Assembly (NCBI GenBank): GCA_964016885.1
Contig: OZ024741.1
Location: forward strand, 19,034,001-19,098,000
Source of the DNA: Eledone cirrhosa
Taxonomy: Eukaryota
Length of the DNA stretch: 64,000 nt
Direction of reading: 5' to 3'
Each line of letters begins with the position of its first letter. Position 1 is the stretch's first letter. The notes below the pieces were generated by a model that made no database searches, had not been told where the DNA came from, and worked only from the letters and a program-made list of their open reading frames with translations. Positions 10,009 through 62,358 of the stretch are shown piece by piece. The position numbers were made by a program, and so were the translations under genes.

Positions 10009-10356
10009 ATTATGGTTTTATAAATATAGTTTCCATTTATTAATATATTGAATATTTACTCCAGTAAATTGTTGAGTGCTTTATATCAGTTATAAAACTT
10101 TTAAGCTTGTGGAATCCCAACAAATTAAATATAACTTTTGCATATATATATATATATATATTTAAAAGTTAAACAAGTTTCAATGAATAAATCAAAGAAT
10201 GAGTTTTACAATAGATTGGAAGCACTCAATAGATATGGTTTTCCAGAGTTATTAATATTAATTCAAAATATTAAGAAAATAGATATTCTTGTGATCAAGA
10301 ACTTAAATTAAATATTTTGAATATTAATGGTCAACCAAATAAGTTTAGGAATATAT

Positions 10357-12571
10357 ATTCAAGCATGTTTTACAACGTGAGGACCAGAAACAGGAGGTAT
10401 TCAAGATTGCGAGGCAGTGTGTCAGAGATAGTTGTGATGTCATTGGAGAGAAGTGTATCCGGAATGATAAAGGTGAGCTTGCCCTCACAAGTGCTGAGAA
10501 GAAAGATGCATGGAAGAGTCATTATGATAGATTACTAAATGAGGAGAATGCATGGGAAGAAGAGACCCTACCCCACGTAGACCCTATAGAGGGACCAGCA
10601 GTACAAGTCAGCGGCAGCGTAGTAAGTAAGGCAATCAGAGATATGAAGATAGGGAAGGCAACCGGTCCATCGGGTATAGCTGCCGAGATGCTGAAGGCAT
10701 CTGGGTCTGTAGGTCACACTATAACCACACGTATCGTTAACCAGGTAATACTAGAGGGGGCCATACCAAAAGATTGGTGCAGTAGCATCATTGTCAACTG
10801 CTACAAAGGTAAAGGCGATGCACTAGATAGAGGAAACTATAGAGGTATAAAGTTGATGGACCAGGTCATGAAAGTAACAGAAAGAGTTATAGCACAGCTG
10901 ATTAGGGACCGGGTGAATATAGACGAGATGCAATTTGGGTTTGTACCAGGGAAAGGCACCACTGATGCGCTCTTCCTTGTGAGGCAATTACAGGAAAAGT
11001 ACCTAGCTAAAAGTAAGCCACTCTACTTGGCATTTGTCGACCTTGAGAAAGCCTTTGACAGAGTTCCACGTGCAGTAATCTGGTGGGCTCTTAGAAAACT
11101 AGGAGTAGATGAATGGCTTGTGAAAGCGGTACAAGCCATGTATAGGGGAGCAGTCAGCAAAGTTAGGATTGGCAATGAGTATAGCGAGGAATTTAGCGTA
11201 CAGGTTGGGGTCCACCAGGGCTCTGTTCTTAGCCCTCTCCTGTTCATCATAGTCCTGCAGGCAATAACGGAGGAGTTTAAGACCGGATGCCCATGGGAAC
11301 TCCTGTATGCTGATGACCTCGCACTCATAGCTGAATCTATGGTAGAACTAGAAAATAAATTCCAAACCTGGAAGCAGGGACTAGAGAGAAAGGGCCTCAA
11401 AGTCAACATGACAAAGACTAAGGTCCTTGTAAGTAGACGAGAAAACAGAACCCAGATCCCCTCAGGGAAATGGCCTTGCTCAGTATGTAGGAAAGGTGTA
11501 GGTAGAAACTCCATTCTCTGCCCCAAATGCAAACAATGGGTACACAAGAGATGTAGCGGGATCTCAGGAAGCTTAATTAAGAATGTAGGATTCACATGCA
11601 GCAGCTGTGCTGAAACAGCAAGCAAACAGCCACAGGAAACAAGTACCACCAATCTCTGGGAGGGCCCTGTAGAAACAGTAGACAGCTTCTGCTACCTAGG
11701 TGACCGAATTAGCAACGGAGGTGGGTGCTCAGAAAGTACAATAACTAGGGTAAGAACGGGATGGAAGAAGTTTAGGGAACTACTACCACTGCTAGCTGCA
11801 AAAGGCTTCTCCCTCAGAATGAAAGGCAGACTGTATGATGCGTGTATCCGAACAGCGATGTTGCATGGTAGTGAGACCTGGGCGCTGAAGGTGGAAGACT
11901 TACGTAGATTAGAGAGAAACGAAGCCTGCATGCTCCGATGGATGTGTAACAGTAATATACGTGAACGACAAAGCATAAAGGAATTGAGAGAGAGACTGAG
12001 CATAAGAGGAATCAAATGCTGCGTGCAGGAGAGGCGGTTACGCTGGTATGGACATGTGATGCGTATGAAGGATGACAGCTGCATAAAAAGGTGCAGAGCA
12101 CTAGAAGTTGATGGAAACCGCGGAGTGGGGAGACCCAAGATGACTTGGGATGAGGTGATAAAAGCCGACCTTACCCAACTACACCTCTCAAAGTCAATGA
12201 CACACGACCGTGACTTCTGGCGTCACGCAGTAATACAGGGTACCCGACCTCCCATGGGTACATGCTGAAGCATATAAACAATATGCCCCCCCCCCTCCAC
12301 CGCAAGGTGGCCGTGGAGGTGCCACGGCAAAAAAAGCACCCAGCCCACACTGTAAAGTGGACGTGTAGGCGCCACGAAAAAGCACCCAGCACTCACTGTA
12401 AATGAGGTTGGCGTTAGGAAGGGCATCCAGCTGTAGAAATCAAGCCAGATCAGTTCCTGTATGAGCAAGGCATGGTCAGCCGACCAGACACTGCCCACAA
12501 CAGGACAACCCGTCTAACCCATGCTAGCGTGGAAGAACGGACGTAAAACGGTGATGATGATGATGATGATA
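10357..12571 (+). mobile_element. 5'-truncated RTE-clade LINE with intact RT ORF (stop at 12268)
   Basis: RT motifs FVDLEKAFDRV, QGSVLSP, YADD, FCYLG and LRWYGHV; (GAT)n tail. Confidence 0.95.
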
Positions 12572-13229: not shown

Positions 13230-13416
13230 ACCAATATGACACTATGGTGGAAGAGCTTGAACGGCGAAGGTCTGAGATATTGTTCATAAAGACCATCTGG
13301 CTTGGAGACAACATTGAGAAGAAGGAAGAAGGTCACAGCAGACCACACGGTGGCGAGGATGTCAGTGAAGAGGAGGAGTTGAAGACAGCGTTTGAGTTCC
13401 ACCAGAAATTGAACAG
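13230..13416 (+). CDS. MYO5: Myosin V-like exon (NQYDTMVEELERRRSEILFIKTIW...EEEELKTAFEFHQKLNR)
   Basis: (CT)n tatgtccag|AC...AACAG|gtaagt, 187 nt, phase 1-2, in frame with the 8055 exon. Resembles myosin Va EELDVRKEEVLILRSQL and EDGELWLVYEGLKQANR. Confidence 0.85.
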
Positions 13417-15285: not shown

Positions 15286-16439
15286 TAATAAGTGAGTGGC
15301 TAAAAGGATATATCATCCTACAGAAAGTGTTACCCACATAGTGAGCACATACAAAATGTTAATTCAGAAAGGATATAAAAGAAAACCTGACAAAGTCTCT
15401 GTGTACCTTCATATATAAATACCATAGACCATTTCTCTTCAGATCCTTACGTGTGTATGTGCGCACGTGTTGCTGTGTAATTATGCGTGTGTGTGTGTCT
15501 GTATATGTATTTCTATCTAATTATGCATATGTGTGTGTTTTCCTGTATATGTATTTCTATCTATTTATGCATGTGTGTGTGTGTGTGTGTCTGTATATGT
15601 ATTTCTATCTATTTATGCATGTGTGGTTCTGCATGTGTTAGCAAGAACCTGAATGCTTTGGTTTAATAGTTTTGTTTTTAAAGATATTTTTCAGTTTGTG
15701 TAAATGCAATCATTATTATTTACCTTTTATCCTTACGGGGGTCGATAAAATAAAGTACCAGTAATACACTGGGATAATTGCTGGCCTTGTGCCTAAAGTA
15801 GAAACAATTATTATTTATATTATTTGTATTATTATTATTATTGCCTCCTAAGTAACCGTCACTTCTAACAACTGTATTGTCTATTAACCCAGCAACTGTC
15901 TTGCATGCCGTTCTTTGTAGGCCAGATAATTGCACATTTGCACCTGCACAACAACATCGAGAGATATGCAATGGTGGGGTTTGCTGCACACATCAAAACC
16001 ATGATTGTGAGGGTAAAATACTCAACCTTGCCAAACAGATCAGGTGACTGGCTCTGGTTCCCTCTCTAGCCTCCTCCTTCACCTCCTCTTTTCACTTCAT
16101 CCTTTTGATGATGTTTATTGTTATTATTATTGTTTGCATTTTGAATTATCCTCTCTTCTGCCTCAACATTACTTTGTGTCTCACCCACCCACACCTACAC
16201 ATCTCTTACCCCTCTTCCCATTTTCCCATGAAGTGATTTTACTTTGTTTATTTAAATCGTTGTAACTGCTACATGGTTGATGGTTACTCCTACATGTTGG
16301 TATACAATTACCAACACCAATACCACTGATGGTTGCTGCTACATGTTAGTATACCAATGCCTCTAGTCACTGCTATATGTTGGCGGGCCATTACCACGGC
16401 TACTTGCAGCTACATGTCGGCATACCAAGGTCATTAGTG

Positions 16440-27310: not shown

Positions 27311-30300
27311 TCATCATCATCATCATCATCACCGTTTTACGTCCGTTCTTCCACGCTAGCATGGGTTAGACGGGTTGTCCTGTTGTGTGCAGTGTCTGGT
27401 CAGCTGACCATGCCTTGCTCATACAGGAACTGATCTGGCTTGATTTCTACAGCTGGATGCCCTTCCTAACACCAACCTCATTTACAGTGAGTGCTGGGTG
27501 CTTTTTCATGGCGTCTACACGTCCACTTTACAGTGTGGGCTGGGTGCTTTTTTGCCGTGGCACCTCCACGACCACCTTGCGGTGGGGGGTGTGGGGGCAT
27601 ATTGTTTATATGCTTCAGCATGTACCCATGGGAGGTCGGGTACTCTGTATTACTGCGTGACGCCAGAAGTCACGGTCGTGTGTCATTGTCTTTGAGAGGT
27701 GTAATTGGGTAAGGTCGGCTTTTATCACCTCATCCCAGGTCATCTTGGGTCTCCCCCACTCCGCGGTTTCTATCTGCACCTTTTTATGCATCCTTCATAC
27801 GCATCACATGTCCATACCAGCGCAACCGCCTCTCCTGCACACAGCATTTGATTCCTCTTATGCTCAGTCTCTCTCTCAATTCATTTATGCTTTGTCGTTC
27901 ACGTATATTACTGTTACACATCCATCGGAGCATGCAGGCTTCGTTTCTCTCTAATCAACGTAAGTCTTCCACCTTCAGCGCCCAGGTCTCACTACCATGC
28001 AACATCGCTGTTCGGATACACGCATCATACAGTCTGCCTTTCATTCTGAGGGAGAAGCCTTTTGCAGCTAGCAGTGGTAGTAGTTCCCTAAACTTCTTCC
28101 ATCCTGTTCTTACCCTAGTTATTGTACTTTCTGAACACCCACCTCCGTTGCTAATTCGGTCACCTAGGTAGCAGAAGCTGTCTACTGTTTCTACAGGGCC
28201 CTCCCAGAGATTGGTGGTACTTGTTTCCTGTGGCTGTTTGCTGCTTGCTGTTTCAGCACAGCTGCTGCATGTGAATCCTACATTCTTAATTAAGCTTCCT
28301 GAGATCCCGCTACATCTCTTGTGTACCCATTGTTTGCATTTGGGGCAGAGAATGGAGTTCTTACCTACACCTTTCCTACATACTGAGCAAGGCCATTTTC
28401 CCGAGGGGATCTGGGTTCTGTTTTCTCGTCTACTTACAAGAACCTTAGTCTTGGTCATGTTGACTTTGAGACCCTTTCTCTCTAGTCCCTGCTTCCAGGT
28501 TTGGAATTTATTCTCTAGTTCTACCATAGATTCAGCTATGAGTGCGAGGTCATCAGCATACAGGAGTTCCCATGGGCATCCGGTCTTAAACTCCTCCGTT
28601 ATTGCCTGCAGGACTATGATGAACAGGAGAGGGCTAAGAACAGAGCCCTGGTGGACCCCAACCTGTACGCTAAATTCCTCGCTATACTCATTGCTAATCC
28701 TAACTTTGCTGACTGTTCCCCTATACATGGCTTGTTCCGCTTTCACAAGCCATTCATCTACTCCTAGTTTTCTAAGAGCCCACCAGATTACAGCACGTGG
28801 AACTCTGTCAAAGGCTTTCTCAAGGTCGACAAATGCCAAGTAGAGTGGCTTACTTTTAGCTAGGTACTTTTCCTGTAATTGCCTCACAAGGAAGAGGGCA
28901 TCAGTGGTGCTTCTTCCTGGTACAAACCCAAATTGCATCTCATCTATATTCACCCAGTCCCTAATCAGCTGTGCTATAACTCTTTCTGTTACTTTCATGA
29001 CCTGGTCCATCAACTTTATACCTCTATAGTTTCCTCTATCTAGTGCATCGCCTTTGCCTTTGTAGCAGTTGACAATGATGCTACTGCACCAATCTTTTGG
29101 TATGGCCCCTTCTAGTATTACCTGGTTAACGATACGTGTGGTTATAGTGTGACCTACAGACCCAGATGCCTTCAGCATCTTGGCAGCTATACCCGATGGA
29201 CCGGTTGCCTTCCCCATCTTCATATCTTTGATTGCCTTACTTACTACGCTGCTGCTGACTTGTACTGCTGGTCCCTCTATAGGGTCTACTTGGGGTAGGG
29301 TCTCTTCTTCCCATGCATTCTCCTCATTTAGTAATCTATCATAATGACTCTTCCATGCATCTTTCTTCTCAGCACTTGTGAGGGCAAGCTCACCTTTATC
29401 ATTCCGGATACACTTCTCTCCAATGACATCACAACTATCTCTGACACACTGCCTCGCAATCTTGAATACCTCCTGTTTCTGGTCCTCACGTTGTAAAACA
29501 TGCTTGAATTTTCTATCCTCTGCTTCCCTCCTAGCTAAGTATACTTGTTGCCTAGCTTCCCTCTTGGTCTCTATGTAATGTACCCTGCTCCCCCCGTTCT
29601 TCCATTCTTTCCATGCCTGTCTCTTGGCGTTAACTGCTTCATCTACCTTATTGTTCCACCACCAAGTCACTCTCCTCCTGCTTGAGGTCTTACTCCAGCC
29701 ACAGACCTCATCCGTCGCCTCTAGTAAATTATTTTTTAGGAACTCCCAGTTCTCTTCTACGTTAAATGTCTGTATCTGTTCCTCTTTACTGTCATAGGCG
29801 TTGAGTAAAATATCTTTAAATCTGTTACTGGCTGAGGGGACTTTCAGCTTCCAGATCTTTCTTCTCCAGGTTGGCCTCTGTTTCCGGGTTCGTCTAATTC
29901 TGACCGTGAGGTCGCTGACAACTAAGCTATGTTGGGATGTACATTCCTCACTAGGGAAGGCTTTTGTGTTTACGACCGTCCATCTGTCACGTCCTCTGAT
30001 GAGGATAAAATCTAACTGACTAGAGTGCTCCCCTGATCTATAGGTGATCAGGTGGTTGTCGGGTTTTTTAAAGTTTGTGTTACATATCGACATGTCATTG
30101 GCGTCGCAGAATTCTAGGAGTCTGAATCCTTCCTCATTCCTTGTGCCAACTCCATGGCCTCCATGTACTCTATTGAAGCCGTCGCAGTGTTTACCTACGT
30201 GTCCTTTAAAATCTCCTGCGATGATTAGGAAGTCCTTGTCGTCTGTTAGAGCAGTAGTGTGTATTAGGGACTCGTAAAACCTATCCTTAAGTTCGTCTGG

Positions 30301-30740
30301 CAGCTCCAATTGGGGTGCGTAAGCTGATATTATTGTGGTAATTGTCTTATTCAGGACTAGTCTGAGTTTAATGATTCTTGCATTTACCCTGTACACTGAG
30401 ATTACTTTATCTACCCACTTGTCAGCTAATAGTATACCTACACCACCCATCCCATCGTCATTTCCCACCCAGAAAAACTTGTAGCTCTGGCTTTTTCCTA
30501 CAAGGACTCTAGCAGACTCTTCTCTCCATCTAGTCTCTTGCACACAGCATACATCAACTTCCTTTCGCTCTAGCATTTCTACGATTTCTCCTGCTCTTCC
30601 TTTCATTGAGCCTACATTGATGGTACCAACTCGGAGTTTTGGGCATTTGTCGACACTCGTAGGGGAGGGTCTCTGGGTTGGCGCTTCACGTGGGTGCTTT
30701 AAATATATACAATAAGTCCTGCCATTCATTCACCATTACC
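27311..30740 (-). mobile_element. Near full-length RTE LINE (APE endonuclease + RT), premature stop at 27955, inserted in a TTAA MITE (27242-30904)
   Basis: 924-aa ORF with GTINVGS, QETR, SAYAP, AGDF, LDFI and RT motifs. AGA>TGA relative to the 10357 copy. Confidence 0.95.
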
Positions 30741-34102: not shown

Positions 34103-34182
<80 letters not shown>

Positions 34183-34433
34183 TGTTTTTACATTTCACAG
34201 CTCATTCCTATGTAGCTATAGTTGGCCTCAAGCAAGGTAGTATATAGCAGATTTATTGGGTATTTTAATGATAGGGGCCTCAATTCTACCATATGATGAT
34301 ATAGATAGACCAGAAGGAGATATGGACAAAATACTGGCCTTTACATAAGTTGACCATCTATTATATAGATGGACAAAAATACTGACCAGTGGATAGATTG
34401 AATATATAGAACATTGTGTACTGTATATTGTAG

Positions 34434-35540
34434 AATGGCATCAAACCCACCCATAATGTCACCCTCATCCAACATCAACAACAAAAACATGTCTGTATAT
34501 TTTACTGAATATTTACAACTACAACAGCAACAACAACAGTGGAAGACAGTAGAACTGAAAGCTGTTGATGAGGACTGTTACAGTGGTGATGATGATGAGG
34601 GGGTGGTGGAGGAGGAGGGGGTAGTTGATAGCTTCACTGATACCACTACTATTAGGACTACCACCACTACCTTTAATGGCAGGGATGACCACCACCACAA
34701 TATTAACCATGACATCAACACCACCACTGCCAACACCACCACAGATATTTCCAACTACACCAACACCATAATGGCTATCAATGATATAAACACAACCACT
34801 ACCACACATACCATTGACATTGCTAACACCACCACCAACAACACTGCCAACACCAACACCGACATCACCAACACCACCACCAACAATACTGCCAACACCA
34901 ACAACACTGCCACCACCAACATCACCAACACCAACAACACTGCCACCACCAACACCACCAACAACACTGCCACCACCAACACCACCAACACCACCACCAC
35001 CTCCACCATCATCAACAACAACGATGATGAAATGAATATTAAAGAAGCTGGCTGTGAGGTTGATGAAGTGGAACAAGAGATGGGGGTATGTGATGGGATT
35101 GTGACCCCACCACAATACAGAGAACAGGAGGGCTTAGATGTAGAAGTAGGTGACACACCCGTGTCCCCACAGAGGAAAAGAGTACAGAGAAAGAATGATG
35201 TAGTTAATGGTGGGTTGTTCCCCCTGTTTACCAGAGAAGACACAGTGGAAGATGTGGGGTCAGCTGATAAGATCAAGTCCCCACTGGTTTCCAGAGAAGA
35301 TACAGTGGAAGAGGAGGGGGTAGTTGATAGGATAGTATCCCCAGCCTTCACCGCAGAAGCTACAGTGGATGAGGGGGTAGTTGACACAGCAGTATCTCCC
35401 CTATTGATGAGAAAAGACAGAGGTGAGAGGCCTGTGTTCCCCGAGTGGAAGAGAGAACACAGGAAACATGGAATGGTAAATTACTTGTGGGAACAGACAG
35501 ATCTCTGTGAACATCTCCAACACCAGAAGAATGTCATCAA
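34434..35540 (+). CDS. Putative large alternative (cassette or first) exon of the myosin V gene; acidic, Thr/Asn-rich
   Basis: About 369 open codons. Acceptor ttgtag|A and donor AA|gtaggc are both phase 2; ATG at 34435. Internal 57-60 nt repeats keep the frame. Confidence 0.5.
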
Positions 35541-35761
35541 GTAGGCAGACTCTTTTATATTTCACACACTAACACACACAGTGACACTGACACACACACA
35601 CACACATACTGTACTGTGGTGGGGGTCACAACCCCATCACACACACACACTGACACTCACACACACTAACACACGTATTGGACCTTTGTATGTCTGTTCC
35701 GACTAGTATAAAGACACACACACACACATGCTGGACCTTGTCTGTCTGTTCCAACTAATAT

Positions 35762-38937: not shown

Positions 38938-41010
38938 TAGTGTATCCGGAATGATAAAGGTGAGCTTGCCCTCACAAGTGCTGAGAAGAAAGATGCATTG
39001 AAGAGTCATTATGATAGAGAATGAGGAGAATGCATGGGAAGAAGAGACCCTACCCCAAGTAGACCCTATAGAGGGGCCAGCAGTACAAGTCAGCAGCAGC
39101 GTAGTAAGTAAGGCAATGAAAGATATGAAGATGGGGAAGGCAACCGGTCCATCGGGTATAGCTGCCGAGATGCTGAAGGCATCTGGGTCTGTAGGTCACA
39201 CTATAACCACACGTATTGTTAACCAGGTAATACTAGAAGGTGTCATACCAAAAGATTGGTGCAGTAGCATCATTGTCAACTGCTACAAAGGTAAAGGTGA
39301 TGCACTAGATAGAGGAAACTATAGAGGTATAAAGCTGATGGACCAGGCCATGAAAGTAACAGAAAGAGTTATAGCACAGTTGATTAGGGACCGGGTGAAA
39401 CTAGATGAGATGCAATTTGGGTTTGTACCAGGAAGAGGCACCCCTGATGCCCTCTTCCTTGTGAGGCAGTTACAGGAAAAGTACCTAGCTAAAAGTAAGC
39501 CACTCTACCTGGCATTCGTCGATCTCGAGAAAGCTTTTGATAGAGTTCCATGTGCTGTAATCTGGTGGGCTCTTAGAAAACTAGGAGTAGATGAATGGCT
39601 TGTGAAAGCTGTACAAGCCATGTATAGGGGAGCAGTCAGCAAAGTTAGGATTAGCAATGAGTATAGCGAGGAATTTAGTGTACAGGTTGGTGTCCACCAG
39701 GGCGCTGTTCTTAGTCCTCTCCTGTTCATCATAGTCCTGCAGGCAATAACGGAGGAGTTTAAGACCGGATGCCCATGGGAACTCCTGTATGCTGATGACC
39801 TCGCACTTATAGCTGAATCTATGGTAGAACTAGAGAAGAAATTCCAAACTTGGAAGCAGGGACTAGAAAGAAAGGGTCTCAAAGTCAACATGACAAAGAC
39901 TAAGGTCCTTGTAAGTAGATGAGAAAACAGAACCCAGATCCCCTCAGGGAAATGGCCTTGCTCAGTATGAAGGAAAGGTGTAGGTAGGAACTCCATTCTC
40001 TGCCCCAAATGCAAACAATGGGTACACAAGAGATGTAGAAGGATCTCAGGAAGCTTAACTAAGAATGTAGGCTTCACATGTAGCAGCTGTACTGGGACAA
40101 CAAGCAAACAGCAACAGGAATCAAGTACCACCAATCTCTGGGAGGGCTCTGTAGAGACAGTAGACAGCTTCTGCTACATAGGTGACTGAATTAGCAGTGG
40201 AGGTGGATGTTCAGAAAGTACAATAACTAGGGTAAGAACGGGATGGAAGAAGTTCAGGGAGCTACTGCCACTGCTAGCTGCAAAAGGCTTCTCCCTCAAA
40301 ATGAAAGCAGACTGTATGATGCGTGCATCCGAACAGCAATGTTACATGGTAGTGAGACCTGGGCGCTGAAGGTGGAAGACTTACGTAGATTAGAGAGAAA
40401 CGAAGCCTGTATGCTCCGATGGATGTGTAATAGTAATATACGCGAACGACAAAGCATAAATGAATTGAGAGAGAGACTGAGCATAAGAAGGCGGTTGCGT
40501 TGGTATGGACATGTGATGCGTATGAAGGATGACAGCTGCATAAAAAGGTGCAGAGCACTAGAAGTCGATGGAAACTGCGGAGTGGGTAGACCCGAGATGA
40601 CCTGGGATGAGGTGATAAAAGCCGACCTTACCCAATTACACCTCTCAAAGGTGATGACATACGACCGTGACCTCTGGCGTCACGCAGTAATACAGAGTAC
40701 CCGACCTCCCATGGGTACAAGCTGAAGCATATAGACAATATGCCCCCACACCCCCCACCGCAAGGTGGACGTGGAGGTGTCACGGTAAAAAAGCACCCAG
40801 CCGACACTGTAAAGTGGATGTGTAGGCGCCACGGAAAAGCATCCACACTCACTGTAAATGAGGCTGGTGTTAGGAAGGGCATCCAGCTGTAGAAATCAGT
40901 TCCTGTATGAGCAAGGCATGGTCAGCCAACCAGACACTGCCCACAACAGGACAACCCGTCTAACCCATGCTAGCGTGGAAGAACGGACGTAAAACAGTTG
41001 TGATGATGAT
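38938..41010 (+). mobile_element. 5'-truncated, degenerate RTE LINE
   Basis: Same family as the 10357 copy; stops near 39920, 39968 and 40186, frameshift near 40305. Confidence 0.95.
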
Positions 41011-42340: not shown

Positions 42341-42994
42341 CCACGTAACTATTCATAATGGTTGCTGTTGAGAGCTCTGGTGTCCTTAGTCACCAGACTG
42401 TTTTTTTTGCCTGTAAAATTGTGAAGGATGCTCCAGCTTGATTAGTGGCTGATGTAGTGGGTGTAGCTGGCTATTTTCTATGGAAATGTTTTCACCACCT
42501 TGTCTATAAGTGAGGGACAGACAGGTTTACACAGTCTGTCCCTCACTTTCCTATTCGCCCTTTTTTCTCTCTTCCTGTTTGTTATGCGAAATATTACTGT
42601 AAAGTGGTTGGTAATAGGAAGGTCATCCAGCTGTAGCATACTTGCCAGACAAAGGCTTGGGAGGACCCTCGGTTGTGTCAAAGGCATGACAACCTCTCCT
42701 GAGCAATTGATAGAACATGAGACACTACATAAGTACACAGGTCCCTGGCGTGTCTGGGAGATCAGTGGCTCTGCTTCAGTACTGACTTGGTCTATATGGA
42801 CCTGTCCAACCCTTGCTAGCAGGGAAGGTGGACATTAAAACGACAATGATGATGATTCATGTGAATAAAATTTGGCTACATTTAAGTATGATACATTATC
42901 TGAGTGATCTTTACGTAGAATGACAGAGCTACAGGGAATATTGTTGATACAGGACATTAACACTGGCTTAAATAGTGTCTAGGAAGAAGACACA

Positions 42995-45900
42995 CTCACA
43001 CCATACACACCATACACTCTGTACACACCATACACTCTGTACACACCATACACACTGTACACACCATACACTCTGTACACACCATACACTCTGTACACAC
43101 CATACACACCATACACTCTGTACACACCATACACTCTGTACACACCATACACTCTGTGCACACCATACACTCTGTACACACCATACACTCCATACACTCT
43201 GTACACACCATACACTCTGTACACACCATACACTCCATACACTCTGTACACACCATACACTCTGTACACACCATACACTCTGTACACACCATACACTCCA
43301 TACACACCATACACTCTGTACACTCTGTACACACCATACACTCCATACACACCATACACTCTGTACACACCATACACTCCATACACTCCGTACACACCAT
43401 ACACTCCGTACACTCTGTACACACCATACACTCCATACACTCTGTACACACCATACACTCCATACACTCCGTACACTCTGTACACACCATACACTCCATA
43501 CACTCTGTACACACCATACACTCCATACACACCATACACTCCATACACTCCGTACACACCATACACTCTGTACACACCATACACTTCATACACTCCATAC
43601 ACTCCGTACACTCTGTACACACCATACACTCCATACACTCCGTACACTCCATACACTCTGTACACACCATACACTCCATACACTCTGTACACACCATACA
43701 CTCCGTACACTCTGTACACTCTGTACACACCATACACTCCATACACTCCGTACACTCTGTACACACCATACACTCCATACACTCCGTACACACCATACAC
43801 TCTGTACACTCTGTACACACCATACACTCTGTACACTCTGTACACACCATACACTCCATACACTCTGTACACACCATACACTCTGTACACTCTGTACACA
43901 CCATACACTCCATACACTCTGTACACACCATACACTCTGTACACACCATACACTCCATACACTCCGTGCACACCATACACTCTGTACACACCATACACTC
44001 AGTACACTCCGTACACTCCATACACTCCATACACTCCGTACACTCCATACACTCCATACACTCCGTACACACCATACACTCTGTACACTCTGTACACACC
44101 ATACACTCAGTACACTCTGTACACACCATACACTCCATACACTCCGTACACTCTGTACACACCATACACTCCATACACTCCGTACACACCATACACTCTG
44201 TACACTCTGTACACACCATACACTCTGTACACTCCGTACACACCATACACTCTGTACACACCATACACTCCGTGCACACCATACACTCTGTACACACCAT
44301 ACACTCAGTACACTCCGTACACTCTGTACACACCATACACTCCATACACTCCGTACACTCTGTACACACCATACACTCCATACACTCCGTACACACCATA
44401 CACTCTGTACACTCTGTACACACCATACACTCTGTACACTCCGTACACACCATACACTCCATACACTCCATACACTCTGTACACACCATACACTCCATAC
44501 ACTGTACACACCATACGCTCCATACACTCTGTACACACCATACACTCCATACACTCCGTACACACCATACACTCTGTACACACCATACACTCCATACACT
44601 CCGTACACACCATACACTCTGTACACACCATACACTCCATACACTCTGTACACACCATACACTCTGTACACACCATACACTCCATACACTCTGTACACAC
44701 CATACACTCCGTACACTCTGTACACACCATACACTCCATACACTCCATACACTCTGTACACACCATACACTCCATACACTCTGTACACACCATACACTCT
44801 GTACACTCTGTACACTCCATACACTCCGTACACACCATACACTCCGTACACTCCGTACACTCCGTACACACCATACACTCTGTACACTCTGTACACACCA
44901 TACACTCCATACACTCTGTACACTCTGTACACACCATACACTCTGTACACTCTGTACACTCTGTACACACCATACACTCTGTACACACCATACACTCCAT
45001 ACACTCCGTACACACCATACACTCTGTACACTCTGTACACACCATACACTCCATACACTCTGTACACACTGTACACACCATACACTCTGTACACTCTGTA
45101 CACACCATACACACCATACACTCTGTACACACCATACACTCCATACACTCCGTACACACCATACACTCTGTACACTCTGTACACACCATACACTCTGTAC
45201 ACACCATACACACCATACATTCTGTACACACCATACACTCCGTACACACCATACACTCTGTACACACCATACACTCTGTACACACCATACACACCATACA
45301 CTCTGTACACACCATACACACCATACACTCTGTACACACCATACACTCCATACACTCTGTACACTCCATACACTCCGTACACTCTGTACACACCATACAC
45401 TCTGTACACTCTGTACACACCATACACTCCATACACTCTGTACACACCATACACTCCGTACACACCATACACTCTGTACACACCATACACTCTGTACACA
45501 CCATACACTCTGTACACACCATACACTCCGTACACACCATACACTCTGTACACTCTGTACACACCATACACTCCATACACTCCGTACACACCATACACTC
45601 CGTACACTCCATACACTCCGTACACACCATACACTCTGTACACTCTGTACACACCATACACTCCATACACTCCGTACACACCATACACTCTGTACACTCT
45701 GTACACACCATACACTCCATACACTCCGTACACACCATACACTCTGTACACTCTGTACACACCATACACTCCATACACTCCGTACACACCATACACTCTG
45801 TACACACCATACACTCTGTACACACCATACACTCTGTACACACCATACACTCTGTACACACCATACACTCTGTACACTCCATACACTCCGTACACACCAT

Positions 45901-48517
45901 ACACTCTGTACACACCATACACTCTGTACACACCATACACTCTGTACACACCATACACTCTATACACTCTGTACACACCATACACTCTGTACACACCATA
46001 CACTCTATACACTCTGTACACACCATACACTCCATACACTCTGTACACACCATACACTCTGTACACACCATACACTCCATACACTCTGTACACACCATAC
46101 ACACCGTACACACCATACACTCTGTACACTCTGTACACACCATACACTCCATACACTCTGTACACACCATACACTCTGTACACTCCGTACACACCATACA
46201 CTCTGTACACACCATACACTCTGTACACACCATACACTCTGTACAGACCATACACACCATACACACCATACACTCCATACACTCTGTACACACCATACAC
46301 ACCATACACACCATACACTCCATACACTCTGTACACACCATACACACCATACACACCATACACACCATACACTCCATACACTCTGTACACACCATACACT
46401 CCATACACTCTGTACACACCATACACACCATACACACCATACACTCCATACACTCTGTACACACCATACACTCTGTACACTCTGTACACACCATACACTC
46501 TGTACACACCATACACTCTGTACACACCATACACACCATACACTCTGTACACACCATACACTCTGTACACACCATACACTCTGTACACACCATACACTCT
46601 GTACACACCATACACACCATACACTCTGTACACACCATACACTCTGTACACACCATACACTCTGTACACACCATACACTCTGTACACACCATACACACCA
46701 TACACTCTGTACACACCGTACACTCTGTACACACCATACACTCTGTACACACCATACACTCTGTACACAACATACACACCATACACTCTGTACACACCAT
46801 ACACTCTGTACACACCATACACTCTGTACACACCATACACTCTGTACACACCATACACTCCATACACTCTGTACACACCATACACTCTGTACACACCATA
46901 CACTCTGTACACACCATACACTCTGTACACACCATACACTCCATATACTCTGTACACACCATACACTCTGTACACACCATACACACTGTACACACCATAC
47001 ACTCTGTACACACCATACACACCATACACTCTGTACACACCATACACACCATACACTCTGTACACCATACACTCTGTACACACCATACACTCTGTACACA
47101 CCATACACACCATACACTCTGTACACACCATACACTCTGTACACACCATACACACCATACACACCATACACTCTGTACACACCATACACTCTGTACACAC
47201 CATACACTCTGTACACACCATACACTCTGTACACACCATACACACCATACACTCTTTACACACCATACACTCTGTACACACCATACACTCTGTACACACC
47301 ATACACTCTGTACACACCATACACACCATACACTCTGTACACACCATACACTCTGTACACACCATACACACCATACACTCTTTACACACCATACACTCTG
47401 TACACACCATACACACCATACACTCTGTACACACCATACACTCTGTACACACCATACACTCTGTACACTCCATACACTCTGTACACACCATACACTCTGT
47501 ACACACCATACACTCTGTACACACCATACACTCTGTACACACCATACACTCCATACACTCTGTACACACCATACACACCATACACTCCATACACTCTGTA
47601 CACACCATACACTCTGTACACACCATACACACCATACACTCTGTACACACCATACACTCTGTACACACCATACACTCCATACACTCTGTACGCACCATAC
47701 ACTCTGTACACACCATACACTCTGTACACACCATACACACCATACACTATACACACCATACACTCCATACACTCTGTACACACCATACTCTGTACACACC
47801 ATACACACCATACACTCCATACACTCTGTACACACCATACACTCTGTACACACCATACACACCATACACTCTGTACACACCATACACTCTGTACACACCA
47901 TACACTCTGTACACACCATACACTCTGTACACACCATACACTCCATATACTCTGTACACACCATACACTCTGTACACACCATACACACTGTACACACCAT
48001 ACACTCCATACACTCTGTACACACCATACACTCTGTACACACCATACACTCTGTACACACCATACACACCATACACTCTGTACACACCATACACTCTGTA
48101 CACACCATACACTCTGTACACACCATACACACCATACACTCTGTACACACCATACACTCTGTACACACCATACACTCTGTACACACCATACATCTTGTAC
48201 ACACCATACCCACTGTACACACCATACACACCATACACTCCATACACTCTGTACACACCATACACTCTGTACACACCATACACACCATACAAACCATACA
48301 CTCTGTACACACCATACACACCATACACTCTGTACACACCATACACACCGTACACACCGTACACACCATACACACCATACACACCATACACTCTGTACAC
48401 ACCGTACACTCCATACACTCTATACACACCATACACACCATACACACCATACACACCATACACTCCATACACTCCATACACTCTGTACACTCCATACACT
48501 CCATACACTCCATACAC
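42995..48517 (+). repeat. 5.5 kb satellite of 9-bp units TACACWCYR
   Basis: Units tacacacca, tacactctg, tacactcca and tacactccg. Confidence 0.97.
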
Positions 48518-49029
48518 ATATATACATACACACTTATGTTTCGAACATAACTTGCATAAAATTATGATGGAAGGCTTTTAGACAAATATAAATACTTTAA
48601 AATAAACCGTTTATTACTGCAGAATGCAAGACATTCCCAGATTTGATATCAAACGGTTTAAAAAAATAAACTTTAACAATACAATTTAACAAAGGTTCTT
48701 ACATGAAATTATGATGGAAGGTTTTCAGATAAATATAAACACTTCAAAATAAACTGTTTTGTATGATAGAACTGAACCAGGGATAGTTTCAGGTGATTTA
48801 CTATCAAAAGATTTAACCCTTTACTTTCCATATTTCTAATGAAATATTTTTTATTTAATCAATTAATGAAGAATTTGGGAAGAATTTATAAAAAGTACAA
48901 ATATATTAAGATGGTATTTGTAACATAACAAAATGTTCTAATATAAAATTATCTAAGAACCCTTTAAAATGAGTAGTTTTGTTTCATAGAACCGAAAGCA
49001 GTTTTGTGTGTGTCTGTATGTTCTTCTTT

Positions 49030-56437: not shown

Positions 56438-58137
56438 AACAACCTCCTTACTGCTAGTGCTAAGTTAAAGTGGACCCTGTATACTCTGTAAAGTGAATAG
56501 TGGCAGAAAGGGCAACCAGCCATAAAACCCATGCCAAAAATAGAATGTTGGTAAGATGTTGTTCTATGAAGGTAATAACTCTGAATTTCAATTGACCTGG
56601 ACCAGAGGTGGGGGAACATTTTCGTGTTGAAAGGCCACATTATGTTACTTGTAATATAATAAGGATGCATTCAAGAAACCATAATTATGTAACCTTAAAA
56701 TCTACATTATTTTGTAAAAAATCTAATTACTATCTACTAATTATCTAAAAAATGAAAAAAAAAATTAATTTTCAAGCTAACAACCTTTTAATGACTTTGT
56801 TGTAGGAAAGTATTTTGATATTTCGTTGCAACATGGAAGCCCTTTTGATCTGCTAATTTTTTAATTTTGGCTGTCTATCGGTGTGGATTATTTCATTCAG
56901 TTTTATTTACTCTTTCGTATTTAAAATATGTTCATCTTATGGTTTAAATTAAAATTATAAGAGATAGAAAAAAACATATTGATAAAAATTTTTAATTTGT
57001 TGGAAATCTTTTATTTTTTCAAAAGACTGCACAGAATGGCATAGTAGGCCACATATGGCCTTAAGGTCACAGGTTCCCCTTCTTTGACCTGGACTGGGAC
57101 AACCATCCAACCCATGCCAATATGGAAATCTCTTCTGAGTTGAAATGTCCACATGGACTACTTTGACTTAGGTCTTTCAGGGGTCATTACCTAGAAATCA
57201 ATAAGGTTTCTTTTTTATTTATTTTATATTCTAGTTGTGTATGTGTGGATGTCTGTTTGTGTGTGTATGTGTTTATCTCTGTCACTATGATTGTATGTAT
57301 CTGTGTATGTGTATATGTCTGTATCTGTGTGTGTGTGTGTATATATCTTTGCCTATGTTTCTCTATATGACTGACTTTATACACATGTGTCTATGTATAA
57401 TCTGTATGTTTATGTCTATCTATGTCTGTCTGTGTGTGTGTGAAACAATGTCTGTATGTATATGTCTGTGTATCTGTGTGTGTGTGTGTATCTTTTGTAC
57501 ATGTGTGCGTATGTTTTTGTCTGTGTTTTTGCTTTTTTTGTATGTATGTGTGTGTATCTGTAAGCACATGTATCTGTGTGTGTATGTTTGTGCCTGTGTG
57601 TTTGCAATTTTCTGTATGTATGCACACATATCTCTCTGTGTATCTGTGTGTGTGTGTGTGTACATGTATGCTAATGTGTTTACTGTGTCAGTATGAAAGC
57701 AGGGCCTCCTGTGTAGTGGCTGTAGTTAATTCCAGAGATCCAGGGAGCCTCCCACATATGACACATTGTTAAACATCAGATCTCTAGTGGCTCGTTAATT
57801 AAAGGTATGAGTTAAACCACCGTCAAAGGTATGCTTGGATGACTCCTCTAGACGCCCCCTTCCCACACATCTTCTGTTCCACTCTTCTCCAACTTTTTGT
57901 TTGTTTATTTGCCTATCTGTCTGTCTAACTCTCTATCGGTAGAGCGTCAGACACTATGTTGTAGCATAGAGTTATAGCCCTTTGCGTTCTGAGTCCAAAT
58001 TCCACCAAGGTAAGCTTTGTCTTTCATCCTTATAAGTTCGATAAAATAAAGTACCAGTAATGCACTGGGGTAATTGCTGGCCTTGTGCCAAAAATAAAAA
58101 CATTACTAATAGAGAAACATATCCATCTATCTATCTA

Positions 58138-59051
58138 GGCGCCTGGCACATTGAATGCGCTCAGGCGCTCACAGTCCTCTGTCAAGTGGGTACGGCAATC
58201 AGTGCAGACTCCACTTCGACATTCTATAGAGGGTTAGTACATTACAAGTGCGACGAAGTGCTTGGAGAGACTCTGGGCGTCAAAGACGACGAGCTCACCA
58301 GTCTGTTCAGTAGGACTTTCCACCCGGCACCCATGGACAACTTCCAGAGGTCCCTGGCCTGGCAGTGCTACTGAGGAACTCTACCAGTTCGATCCAAGAG
58401 GACGTGTCCAGGATGTGAGCAGGACATTGAAGCCATCTTGCACGCAATTGTACGCTGCCCGGGCGTAACCGACTTGTGAACCAACGCAGAACAACTGCTG
58501 TCGCGTATGGGACAAATCCATTTGACTGCTGAGTCCATAGTAAGGATCAAACCGCCAACCTCCTTCAAAAACGAAAGAGAGGCGGTTTTCCTCTGTATAG
58601 TGGCTATGGTGAAAGAAGTTATATGGTGGACGAGATTGAGAGGACTGAGGACAGATGCCTTTCTCTCCGGACAACAACTCATTCCCTTCTTTAGGTACCA
58701 CTTTAGAAGGAGAATCAGTGGAGAGAGAGGCACTGCACCCCAGTAAATTTACTGAAAGGTGGGTGAATGTGGCAAAAATGGCCCTAGTGATTGGGCCTTC
58801 TCTGTTTATAAACCTGTAGATTGAAGAAGAGAGCAAAAGGAAGAAGGGAGGACTTACACAACACGTTCCTGAAGTTGAGGGTTATTCTATCTACGAGGTA
58901 TTAAACAACCCATTTGTGGTGCCTCCCCCCTATTGGGGATTTCGATTGTTATAATTGTTTGTTTTAATTTTTACACGATTGTATGTAAAATCCCTGGCAT
59001 GTGTCTCTGGTTTGTCTCCTTTTCTTGTGCACCCTTGTGGCAAATAAAGAA
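58138..59051 (+). mobile_element. Tx1-clade LINE 3' fragment A (degenerate)
   Basis: MDNFQRSLAWQCY...EVIWWTRL; ends aataaagaa followed by (CTAT)n. Confidence 0.8.
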
Positions 59052-59351
59052 ATCAATCTGTCTATCACTATCTGTCTATCACTATCTATCTATCACTATC
59101 TATCTATCTATCTATCTATCACTATCTGTCTATCACTATCTATCTATCACTATCTATCTATCTATCTATCTATTTGTACTTGTCCCCTTCTTTTGTGCCC
59201 CTGTGGCTAATAAAGAAATATATCTATCTATCTATCACTATCTATCTATCTATCACTATCTATCTATCACTATCTATCTATCACTATCTATCTATCACTA
59301 TCTATCTATCACTATCTATCTATCACTATCTATCTATCTATCTATTTATCT

Positions 59352-60180
59352 ACTGGCCAGCCTGTTCGGTAGGACATTCAGCCCGGGACCTATGGACAAC
59401 TTCCAGAAGTCCCTGGCCTGGCAGTGCTACCGAGGGGCTCTACCCGTTCGAGAAAAGCTCTACAGACACGGGCGCCCGGGTAGAGACCCCGCCAAAAAGA
59501 TCTGTCCCAGATGCGTGTGCGACGAGGAAACCGTTGCACACGCATTGGTACACTGCTCGGGTGTAGCCGATCTGTGGGGCTATGTCAAACAACTGCTGTC
59601 AAGGGTGGCACCGATCCGGTTGACCACCGAGTCTATTGTAATGATCAAGCCGCCTCCCCCCTTCAAAGATGAAGCAGAGGCGGTGTTTCTGTGCGTAATA
59701 GCCATGGTGAAAGAAGTTGTATGGTGGACGCGTCTGAAAGGACTGAGGTCAGGCACCTTTCTCTCTGGCCAACAACTGGTCCGTTTCTTCCGATATCATT
59801 TCGGAAGAAGGATCAGGATGGAGAGAGAGGTGCTGCACCCCAGTCGTTTTTATGAAAGGTGGGTGAAAGTGGCGAGAATGGCCCGTGTGAATGGGCCTTC
59901 TCTTTACATAAGCCTGTAGGTGGAAAAGAGGAAGGAACGAGGGAGCATCCCCTCTCTGTGCTCCTGAGGAAAAGGGTTGCACACTTTTTTCGGGGGTGTG
60001 TGCGACCCCCCAAGGCGCCTCCTCTCTATTGAGGATTTTGTTATAAATTTTATTTTTTGTTATATTTTATTTTATTTTTATACATTGTTATTGCCTCCTC
60101 CTTTTTGAGGACGCCTTTTTGTGTAAACTCCCCCCTTTGTACTTGTCCCACTTTTGATGCCCTGGTGGCAAATAAAAGAA
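59352..60180 (+). mobile_element. Tx1-clade LINE 3' fragment B
   Basis: C-terminal zinc motif ICPRCVCDEETVAHALVHC; flanked by (CTAT)n. Confidence 0.85.
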
Positions 60181-60340
60181 ACATATCTATTTATCTATCT
60201 ATCTATCACTATCTATCTATCACTATCTATCTATCTATCTATCACTATCTATCTATCACTATCTATCTATCTATCTATCTATCACTATCTATCTATCACT
60301 ATCTATCTATCACTATCTATCTATCACTATCTATCTATCT

Positions 60341-61832
60341 ATGGACAGACCTACATAAACATTTCGGTTGAGGGTAGGCGGTCCGCATGTTACCACTGCG
60401 CAAGCAGAGGTCACCTAAGGGCTGCTTGTCCTCAATTGACAAAAAAAAACCCACTTTTACCAACACCACGGCCAAGGTGTTTGCACTCACCCAGAAGTGG
60501 GCCGAGTGCAAACTATCCTTGAAAGGTCGAGCGGAGGTGGCGAACACTTTTATAGCGTCCGCCATCTACTACCGCTTGACCGTCGTGCCTTGTCCAGCCA
60601 AAACGCTCGCCAAAATGGAGCGCGCCCTCTTCCGATTCCTTTGGAAGAGGCGGGCTCCTTTGGTAAGAAGATCCATCTGCTGCCAACACCCTTCTAACAG
60701 AGGGCTGGGGATGCCGTGGTTGACGATGCGCAAACACGCGCTCAGGCTGCGGCATCTCTACGTATTCCTCACCGGACAACCGGTGTGGGCCCCGTTCGTG
60801 AGGCGAGCCTTCCCACGACTCGTCTCACTGACCGAGCTGCAGTCCTGGGTCAAGCAGAGACCGAGGAAAATGGGCGACTGGCACATCGAATGTGCTCAGG
60901 CGCTCACAGCCCTCTGGCAGGCGGACCCGGCGATCAGTGGAGACTCCACTTCGTCATTCTATAGAGGGTTGGTCCGCAGCAAGTGCGACGACGCGCTCGG
61001 TGAAACTCTAGGCGTGGAGGAAGATGAACTGGCCAGTCTGTTCGGTAGGAGCTTCCGCCCGGGACCGATGGACAACTTCCAAAAGTCCCTGGCCTGGCAG
61101 TGCTACCGAGGAGCTCTACCAGTTCGAGACAAGCTCTACAGACATGGGCGCCCGGGCAGGGACCCTGCAAAAAAGATCTGTCCGAGGTGCGTGCGAGACG
61201 AAGAAACCGTCGCGCACGCATTCATACACTGCCTGGGCGTCACTGACCTGTGGGGATATGTAGAACGACTATTGTCGCGGGTGGGACCAATCCAGTTGAC
61301 CACCGAGTCCATTGTCATGATCAAACCGCCACCCTCCTTCAAAAACGAAGGAGAGGCGGTTTTCCTTTGTGTGATAGCTATGGCGAAAGAGGTTGTATGG
61401 TGGACAAGGTTGAAAGGGCTGAGGTCAGACACCTTTCTCTCCGGCCAACAACTGATTCTTTTTTTCAAATACCACTTTGGAAGAAGAATCAGGATGGAGA
61501 GAGAGGTGCTGTACCCCAGCAAGTTTTATGAAAGGTGGGTGAAAGTGGCGAGAATGGCCCGAGTGAATGGGCCTTCTCTCTATATCAGCCTGTAGATTGA
61601 GGAAAAGGAGGAGGAGAGGAAAGGAGTACAAGCTCTTCGTACTCCTGGAGATGAGGGTTGCACATTTTTTTCGGGGGTATGTGTTACCCATATAAACTGT
61701 CTCCCTCTATTGGGGAAAATCGACTAACTTTTAAATACCATCTGTGATAACATTTTACACGTTTTTATTGTATGTAAACTTCCCCCTTTGTATTTGTCCC
61801 CTTCTTTTGTGCCCCTGTGGCTAATAAAGAAA
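60341..61832 (+). mobile_element. Tx1-clade LINE copy C: ORF1 zinc-knuckle piece fused to the ORF2 C-terminus
   Basis: CYHCASRGHLRAAC, then LSLKGR...FRFLW...GLGMP...CPRC..EETVAHAFIHC. Confidence 0.85.
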
Positions 61833-61983
61833 TATATCTATCTATCACTATCTATCTATCTATCTATCTATCTATCACTATCTATCACTATCTATCTATC
61901 ACTATCTATCTATCTATCTATCTATCACTATCTATCTATCACTATCTATCTATCACTATCTATCTATCACTATCTATCTATCT

Positions 61984-62300
61984 ATGGACAGACCTACATA
62001 AACATTTCGGTTGAGGGTAGGCGGTCCGCATGTTACCACTGCGCAAGCAGAGGTCACCTAAGGGCTGCTTGTCCTCAATTGACAAAAAAAAACCCACTTT
62101 TACCAACACCACAAATGACAACACAACCACCACCACCACGACAACAAGAAAAAACAACAGAGAACACTATTCCACCCAACCCCTCCCCACCCAAAACAAA
62201 TACAAAAACACACACAGACACTACAGAACCCCAAAACATACCCCTACCCATCAACACGGATGAGGAACCCCTATCGAGGGCACCCAGCGGCGATGAGGAC
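61984..62300 (+). mobile_element. Tx1 ORF1 fragment D
   Basis: First 130 bp or so identical to copy C, then continues in a Pro/Thr-rich ORF1 linker. Confidence 0.75.
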
Positions 62301-62358
62301 TATCTATCTATCTATCTATCTATCACTATCTATCACTATCTATCTATCTATCTATCTA

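What the first reader, a model, noticed from the sequence alone, without database searches (positions are those of the whole stretch)
34434..35540. Hidden 1.1 kb exon that may give an extended or headless myosin V isoform
Seen: tag|A ATG continues exon 13416 (AAC AG|A) in frame, and AA|gtaggc is a phase-2 donor that would bypass the TAG. The last 14 residues, DLCEHLQHQKNVIK, parallel ELKTAFEFHQKLNR at the end of exon 13230 in length, pattern and phase. Inference: either a 369-aa disordered cassette in the cargo-determining medial tail, or an alternative first exon (MASNPP...) making a motor-less tail protein that could act as a dominant negative or adaptor.
Basis: partly seen in the sequence, partly recalled or inferred. 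Interest (0 to 1): 0.75.

Follow-up and report, generated by a model that had tools for sequence, protein, structure and literature searches.

The report
Motor-less myosin V from intronic exon
An intron of an octopod's myosin V gene holds a 1.1-kb exon that is spliced onto the cargo-binding tail exons and likely starts its own transcript, which would make a natural motor-less form of this transport motor that probably competes for or tethers the motor's cargo.

Summary
The exon is real. In one RNA-like run (X1) a contig leaves the genome at 35540 and enters the next myosin V exon 97.5 kb downstream, in frame. The proposed acceptor at 34434 is not seen used: a contig reads unspliced from 34214 across it, and the 4204-nt full-length contig runs exon 13416 straight into the common exon. 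A TGA at 34399 blocks any upstream frame. So the cassette reading is unsupported; the likely product is a headless isoform of about 880-900 aa: a 369-aa predicted-disordered N-terminus on the distal coiled coil and globular tail. The joint matches mouse myosin Va residue 1321, where vertebrate exon D inserts. A separate conserved 123-nt cassette lies at 15921-16043. Not shown: start site, protein, conservation (no homologue); six upstream ATGs; one sample only. The design is that of headless Myo10, catchin/myorod and fly myosin rod protein; nine paper searches found no natural animal class V case. The scan noted a like design in myosin VIIa of another genome, not myosin V.

The parts
13230..13416 (+). 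Constitutive myosin V medial-tail exon (187 nt, ends phase 2); last exon unique to the full-length motor
   Evidence: 75-89% identical to cephalopod myosin V (5 of 5 hits); single copy in G000; joined to the common exon in a 4204-nt X1 contig
15921..16043 (+). 123-nt cassette exon (41 codons), orthologue of the 45-aa optional insert of Octopus sinensis RefSeq isoforms
   Evidence: tblastn 48% identity, E 3e-11; tttgtag / gtgact sites; not seen in X1
34108..34181 (+). (TA)n run whose end lies 23 nt before an initiator-like site; possible TATA-like element (inferred)
   Evidence: 4 of 256 (TA)8+ runs on both strands of 134 kb have TCAKTY at that spacing; post hoc
34197..34292 (+). Diverged single copy (about 80%) of a ~105-bp satellite found in arrays elsewhere; holds the initiator-like TCATTC at 34202-34207 and two AGs (34199, 34214) that could be acceptors
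   Evidence: (81 other matches of 82)
34214..34434 (+). Transcribed leader, unspliced to the ORF; stops in all three frames; five short uATG ORFs inside it plus one at 34210
   Evidence: X1 contig starts at 34214 with no loose end and crosses 34434
34435..35540 (+). Coding part of the exon: ATG in strong context (A at -3, G at +4), 368 codons plus a split codon; predicted disordered, acidic
   Evidence: AlphaFold single-sequence mean pLDDT 38.5; no Pfam family above cut-off; 3' half single copy
34645..35025 (+). Thr/Asn triplet-repeat tract (aa 71-197, 85 of 127 residues T or N); a 35-nt direct repeat (34929-34963, 34956-34990) breaks the contigs
35107..35397 (+). Five imperfect 18-20-aa acidic repeats; S/T-P sites at aa 224, 241, 244, 282, 302, 321
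   Evidence: pN about equal to pS between units (0.23/0.26, 0.26/0.32, 0.36/0.59)
35500..35540 (+). Last 14 codons, in heptad register with the coiled coil of the next exon; phase-2 donor GTAGGC follows, used in X1
   Evidence: Partner exon lies outside the window at G000:C2:19167081

Best explanation
The stretch 34214-35540 is an exon that is spliced in frame onto the myosin V tail exons and likely serves as an alternative first coding exon, so that it would give a motor-less isoform of about 880-900 residues that probably binds the motor's cargo receptors without moving them. Shown: open frame, the 35540 donor joined to the common exon, read-through across 34434, stops upstream in all frames. 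Inferred: (1) transcription starts in the intron near 34204 (TA run plus initiator-like site in an old satellite copy) or at an unrecovered leader exon; (2) translation starts at ATG 34435 or a later in-frame ATG, after scanning or re-initiation past short uORFs; (3) the last 14 residues replace the canonical helix so that the distal coiled coil stays in register and the tail can dimerise; (4) lacking motor, IQ arm and proximal coiled coil, it cannot fold into the head-tail inhibited state, so its globular tail is always free for Rab/adaptor binding, acting as a competitor (as engineered myosin V short tail does) or as a static tether through the acidic, S/T-P-rich N-terminus. About 0.85 for the headless transcript, 0.65 for the protein, 0.4 for the competitor/tether role.
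For:: X1 contig 35034-35542 with a 28-nt loose end; that end is the next exon; all 3 X1 contigs on that exon are one canonical upstream (4204 nt, depth 28.9), one candidate upstream (599 nt, depth 32.8) and one common downstream (1981 nt, depth 99.8); a 745-nt contig starts at 34214 and crosses 34434 unspliced; its collinear end (34958) is exactly where the internal 35-nt repeat must break a 31-mer graph. TGA 34399 in frame, stops in all frames of the leader; Met1 in A-3/G+4 context; open frame beyond shuffles; heptad register kept; orthologue tail from this joint aligns to mouse myosin Va 1321-1828 (E 4e-141), i.e. distal coil plus whole globular tail; 12 matches to the tail follow in order downstream. 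(PMC2156116 passages): an engineered 601-aa tail is dominant negative; natural headless isoforms from internal starts exist for Myo10 and muscle myosin.
Against: One RNA-like run, library kind not on record, one study. Contigs cannot show a start, strand or level; no contig bridges 34959-34971, so 5' and 3' halves are linked by inference. Six uATGs precede Met1. No homologue: 0 hits among 670 candidates of 647-2000 aa, 0 among 1.84 billion representatives; none of 11 read Octopus isoforms or 7 shorter proteins shows this N-terminus. Internal repeats show pN near pS. The maize class XI headless transcript gave no detectable protein. The contig's first two letters are an AG with a fair pyrimidine tract, so the 5' end may be an acceptor, not a start.
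Confidence: 0.65

Rival explanations
1. A headless transcript is made but yields little or no protein: a young exon born from satellite and triplet repeats, held down by uORFs, neutral or acting only at the RNA level.
For: Six uATGs; no homologue; pN near pS between repeats; leader is satellite-derived; maize O1 precedent.
Against: 369 open codons in phase with the tail, 0 of 2000 shuffles for the 3' half; strong start context; heptad-compatible end; contig depth like that of the full-length form (a hint only); fly myosin rod protein N-termini are also unconserved.
Confidence: 0.2
2. One reading: exon 13416 is spliced to 34434, inserting 369 aa into the full-length motor at the exon D position.
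For: Phase fits and the fused frame is open for 369 residues; the position hosts cassettes in Octopus sinensis and vertebrates; rare joints are dropped from contigs; a 2200-aa protein lay outside the length range.
Against: No loose end at 34434, contig unbroken across it; canonical 4204-nt contig unbroken at 13416; acceptor no better than the median intronic AG.
Confidence: 0.08
3. Poison exon: exon 13416 is spliced to an AG at 34199 or 34214, adds 13 or 8 residues and stops, giving a tail-less motor or a decay target.
For: Both AGs have pyrimidine share 0.68, top 9% of intronic AGs, and the contig begins on one of them.
Against: Canonical contig shows no branch at 13416; no other X1 contig overlaps 34214-34243 (depths); it leaves the long in-phase ORF unexplained; the AGs are inherited from the satellite.
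Confidence: 0.05
4. An independent intronic gene ending at TAG 35542-35544, or a chance ORF in low-complexity DNA.
For: The genomic frame does stop at 35544; a third of the ORF is triplet repeat.
Against: The only X1 contig over 35540 is spliced, with no cover of the intron beyond; non-repetitive parts are open beyond chance.
Confidence: 0.02

Closest known systems
Catchin/myorod (molluscan muscle myosin II gene) - PMC3912159 passages, PMC4410989 abstract
   Same: [quoted passage not shown]
   Different: Class II filament rod versus class V cargo tail; catchin's exon is found in several molluscs and the protein is purified; here no homologue and no protein evidence.
Drosophila myosin rod protein - PMC3912159 passages
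   Same: Alternative start inside the gene, unique N-terminus not conserved between close relatives.
   Different: Class II; N-terminus is a 5' extension of a shared exon; here a separate exon 97.5 kb upstream of the shared one.
Headless Myo10 - PMC5725431 passages
   Same: Unconventional myosin, intronic start sites, own first exon spliced to shared tail exons, proposed dominant negative or scaffold.
   Different: Its first exon is untranslated (adds 0-1 residue) and it keeps IQ motifs; here 369 new residues and no IQ arm.
Plant class XI headless forms: HDK and maize O1 short transcript - PMC3935558 passages
   Same: Coiled coil plus DIL domain without motor or IQ.
   Different: HDK is a separate gene by partial duplication; O1 short form has no large new N-terminus and no protein was detected.
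Vertebrate myosin Va exon D (aa 1320-1345, Rab10 site) - PMC7994366 passages
   Same: Same position: the shared exon begins at mouse residue 1321 of the isoform without D.
   Different: Exon D is a short internal cassette; this exon is 14 times longer and is not seen joined on its 5' side. The 15921-16043 cassette is the better positional analogue; no sequence homology with exon D was tested.
Engineered myosin V short tail (601 aa) - PMC2156116 passages
   Same: Distal stalk plus globular tail; dominant negative.
   Different: Artificial; this would be an endogenous counterpart.

Membership tests
Class V myosin gene (host) | Flanking exons orthologous to myosin V medial tail and DIL-domain tail | tested here: met
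Headless myosin isoforms from an internal start (Hdl-Myo10, catchin/myorod, myosin rod protein type) | Isoform-specific exon in an intron downstream of the motor exons | tested here: met
Headless myosin isoforms from an internal start | Spliced in frame to the shared tail exons | tested here: met
   (one run)
Headless myosin isoforms from an internal start | Not joined to motor-coding exons | tested here: met
   rare joints could be lost from contigs
Headless myosin isoforms from an internal start | Own transcription start site | tested here: inconclusive
   contig starts at 34214; TA run plus initiator-like site versus possible acceptors; contigs cannot show starts
Headless myosin isoforms from an internal start | Protein detected | not testable with these tools
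   no proteome or footprint data
Catchin/myorod proper | Product of the class II muscle myosin heavy chain gene | tested here: not met
   host is class V
Catchin/myorod proper | N-terminal exon shared among molluscs | tested here: not met
   no homologue; Mya model N-terminus unrelated, best E 2.4
Exon D-type medial-tail cassette | Located just before the exon that starts at myosin Va residue 1321 | tested here: met
Exon D-type medial-tail cassette | Joined on both sides within the full-length mRNA | tested here: not met
   (one run, contigs)
Exon D-type medial-tail cassette | Rab10 binding | not tested
   no binding test run

The most novel reading that the evidence does not exclude
Octopods make an abundant natural motor-less myosin V from a promoter co-opted from a TA microsatellite and a satellite copy, at the very intron where vertebrates insert exon D; its disordered phospho-regulated N-terminus turns the cargo tail into a tether or brake. 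A clam gene model with an unrelated 472-aa acidic N-terminus on the same exon boundary (P0029) would then show that molluscs use this intron repeatedly for headless forms.
Probability: 0.3. Interest if true: 0.75.

Novelty: new variant of a known kind. Interest (0 to 1): 0.6.

Why it matters
Myosin V tails are the standard laboratory tool for blocking actin-based cargo transport; a gene that makes such a tail by itself would give cells a built-in way to switch off or anchor vesicle, pigment-granule or ER transport. Natural headless forms are described for Myo10, muscle myosin and plant class XI; my searches found none for animal class V. It is unannotated in the cephalopod proteins reached here and is directly testable by RACE and an antibody to the tail (a band near 100 kDa or above).

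Tried and rejected
Run search: no RNA holder listed; 4 runs of one study, kind not on record. The many joints listed within 34489-34886 come from foreign triplet-repeat contigs and were ignored. Homologue searches for the exon's 3' half were empty; no search covered lengths 203-646 or above 2000 aa in the word-indexed collection. Atlas: the exon is not held; the clam N-terminus gave no usable hit. Pfam DUF2927 hit below cut-off, on the T/N tract, rejected. PDB searches with single short exons gave nothing significant. AlphaFold model too poor for a fold search. Exon-duplication origin of the last 14 residues: not significant. Selection test between internal repeats: uninformative to negative. 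Scan of stop-to-stop frames of 60+ codons in the 120-kb intron (filtered by triplet complexity and a donor-like GT; rows failing the filter not printed) showed, by eye, no other long non-repeat, non-retroelement candidate. Sepia and short Logan proteins (P0026, P0027, P0030-P0032) look like intron read-in artefacts, and the clam RefSeq pieces P0028, P0033-P0037 like split or duplicated models. One paper id from memory was not held. I recall a truncated C. elegans hum-2 form; searches and passages did not confirm it, so it stays an unverified recollection that could lower novelty. No complex prediction was run.

Full report
Host gene. The window is G000:C2:19034001-19098000 of a 3.0-Gb genome. 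Exon 13230-13416 matches cephalopod myosin V at 75-89% identity (5 hits among 53 candidates); further upstream exons lie near 4570, 7080 and 8050. Closest hits are Argonauta and Octopus, so the animal is probably an octopod (inference). The next constitutive exon starts at C2:19167081, equal to window position 133081, and the remaining tail exons follow in order (12 matches). The intron after 13416 is thus about 120 kb.

Observation. Its product has an acidic N-terminal 70 aa, a Thr/Asn triplet tract (aa 71-197), five imperfect 18-20-aa acidic repeats with S/T-P sites, and a short end that fits a helix. The non-repetitive parts are open more often than shuffles allow: 0 of 2000 and 15 of 2000 in the same frame, 35 and 385 of 2000 in any frame. 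The 3' half is single copy. A single-sequence AlphaFold model has mean pLDDT 38.5, in keeping with disorder but no proof of it.

Splicing evidence. Four runs of one study hold the stretch; none is on record as RNA. X1 (88 Mb of contigs) behaves as RNA because its contigs skip introns. Laid on 34190-35620, a 599-nt X1 contig covers 35034-35542 and goes on with 28 letters that are the start of the common exon; the two extra letters are GT in both. Laid on the common exon, X1 gives three contigs in all: a 4204-nt one ending in exon 13416 (depth 28.9), the 599-nt one ending in the candidate exon (depth 32.8), and a shared downstream one of 1981 nt (depth 99.8). So two kinds of upstream sequence converge on this exon. 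The 4204-nt contig has 4174 nt before the joint, about what the whole head needs (some 1340 codons in orthologues), and is unbroken, so no branch from 13416 to 34434 or 15921 survived assembly. On the other side, a 745-nt contig begins at 34214 with no loose end and runs through 34434 unspliced. Read collinearly it ends at 34958, exactly where a 35-nt internal repeat must break a 31-mer graph; the 3' contig would begin at 34972; nothing bridges the 13 nt between. Depth of contigs is a poor measure of level and contigs lose rare forms, so the near-equal depths are a hint only, and minor cassette use is not excluded.

Why headless. The leader 34216-34434 has stops in all three frames, including TGA 34399 in the coding frame. 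Any RNA carrying it can only make the tail by a fresh start. ATG 34435 has A at -3 and G at +4; seven more in-frame ATGs follow. Six short uATG frames come before it, all ending upstream; they may damp translation. The proposed acceptor at 34434 has the pyrimidine content of a median intronic AG, against the top 0.2-9% for the three real acceptors.

Where it starts. A (TA)n run ends at 34181 and an initiator-like TCATTC lies at 34202-34207, ten bases before the contig start; 4 of 256 such runs in 134 kb (both strands) have this arrangement (the consensus is recalled, the test post hoc). The site sits in a lone, 80%-identical copy of a ~105-bp satellite whose arrays read TCACAC there. Against this, the contig begins on an AG, and AGs at 34199 and 34214 have fair pyrimidine tracts: an unrecovered leader exon is possible. 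Either way the protein would be headless unless the donor were 13416, which would stop after 8 or 13 residues and is not seen.

Predicted protein. Orthologue tails from this joint are 512-531 aa, giving about 880-900 aa. The Argonauta tail aligns from its first residue to mouse myosin Va 1321-1828 (E 4e-141), in the brain isoform lacking exon D (passage); exon D is residues 1320-1345 and binds Rab10 (passages). So the new exon enters at the exon D position and the product keeps the distal coil and the whole globular tail, and lacks motor, IQ arm and proximal coil. All three exons that can precede the common exon keep its heptad register; the candidate has L, L, Q, I at the core positions. Sequence likeness of the last 14 residues to exon 13230 is not significant (59 of 537 background 14-mers score as high). 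In full-length myosin Va the tail is held shut by head and coil contacts that cover cargo sites (passages); a headless form could not adopt that state, and an engineered 601-aa tail is dominant negative (passages). Hence the inferred role: competitor for cargo receptors or static tether.

Conservation. None found: 0 of 670 candidates, 647-2000 aa; 0 in 1.84 billion. Of 24 homologues read at this joint, 6 O. sinensis isoforms carry a 45-aa cassette, 17 proteins carry nothing and one 67-aa fragment does not reach it; that cassette has an orthologue here at 15921-16043. Of 7 shorter proteins with the tail, one, a 912-aa Mya arenaria GenBank model, has a 472-aa acidic N-terminus joined at the same boundary; it is unrelated in sequence, comes from a locus with split and duplicated models and may be a prediction artefact. 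It is a lead, not support.

Literature. Seen: passages of PMC3912159 (catchin, myosin rod protein), PMC5725431 (headless Myo10), PMC9733927, PMC7994366, PMC10370119 (octopus myosin VIIa alternative untranslated first exons), PMC3935558 (maize headless O1 transcript, no protein detected), PMC9775386 and PMC5498135 (hum-2, no short form mentioned), PMC2156116; abstract of PMC4410989. Searches listed no paper on a natural headless animal myosin V, judged from listings; searches served comparison. Subscription papers and supplements were not searched, and RefSeq isoform lists of other animals were not surveyed, so novelty is provisional. Look-ups by place and sequence were empty.

Verdict. A real, spliced, unannotated exon; best read as the first coding exon of a motor-less myosin V isoform (0.65 overall). 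The kind is known from other myosin classes; the class V setting, the long coding N-terminus and the exon D position are new as far as searched. Evidence rests on one sample's contigs, without start site, protein or conservation. Interest 0.6.

Noticed in passing
window 15921-16043 (+): 123-nt cassette exon orthologous to the 45-aa Cys/His-containing optional insert of O. sinensis myosin V, at the vertebrate exon D position; not in X1 contigs.
   Followed up: partly
L008:1620 (G000:C2:19167201): The X1 downstream contig goes from the common exon straight to the NLSSK segment, without the 6-residue piece present in Argonauta, O. bimaculoides and squid proteins: likely an 18-nt optional microexon.
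   Followed up: no
window 34655: G>A in all four runs relative to the assembly; codon 74 AGG to AAG, Arg to Lys, frame intact.
   Followed up: yes
window 34197-34292: Lone copy of a ~105-bp satellite with tandem arrays on many contigs.
   Followed up: partly
window 27955-30729 (-), 10349-12268 (+), 39002-40725 (+): LINE-type reverse transcriptase frames, the longest 924 aa with an endonuclease-like N-terminus (recognised by eye).
   Followed up: no
window 42970-48580: 5.6-kb C-rich short-unit tandem repeat giving stop-free pseudo-ORFs of up to 1869 codons.
   Followed up: no
window 58000-64000: Several decayed copies of a second retroelement-like sequence with a zinc-knuckle-like motif (by eye).
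   Followed up: no
protein P0029 (Mya arenaria WAR29019.1): Gene model with a 472-aa acidic, Cys-rich N-terminus (two NPF motifs) joined to the myosin V tail at the same boundary; possible independent headless form or model artefact.
   Followed up: partly
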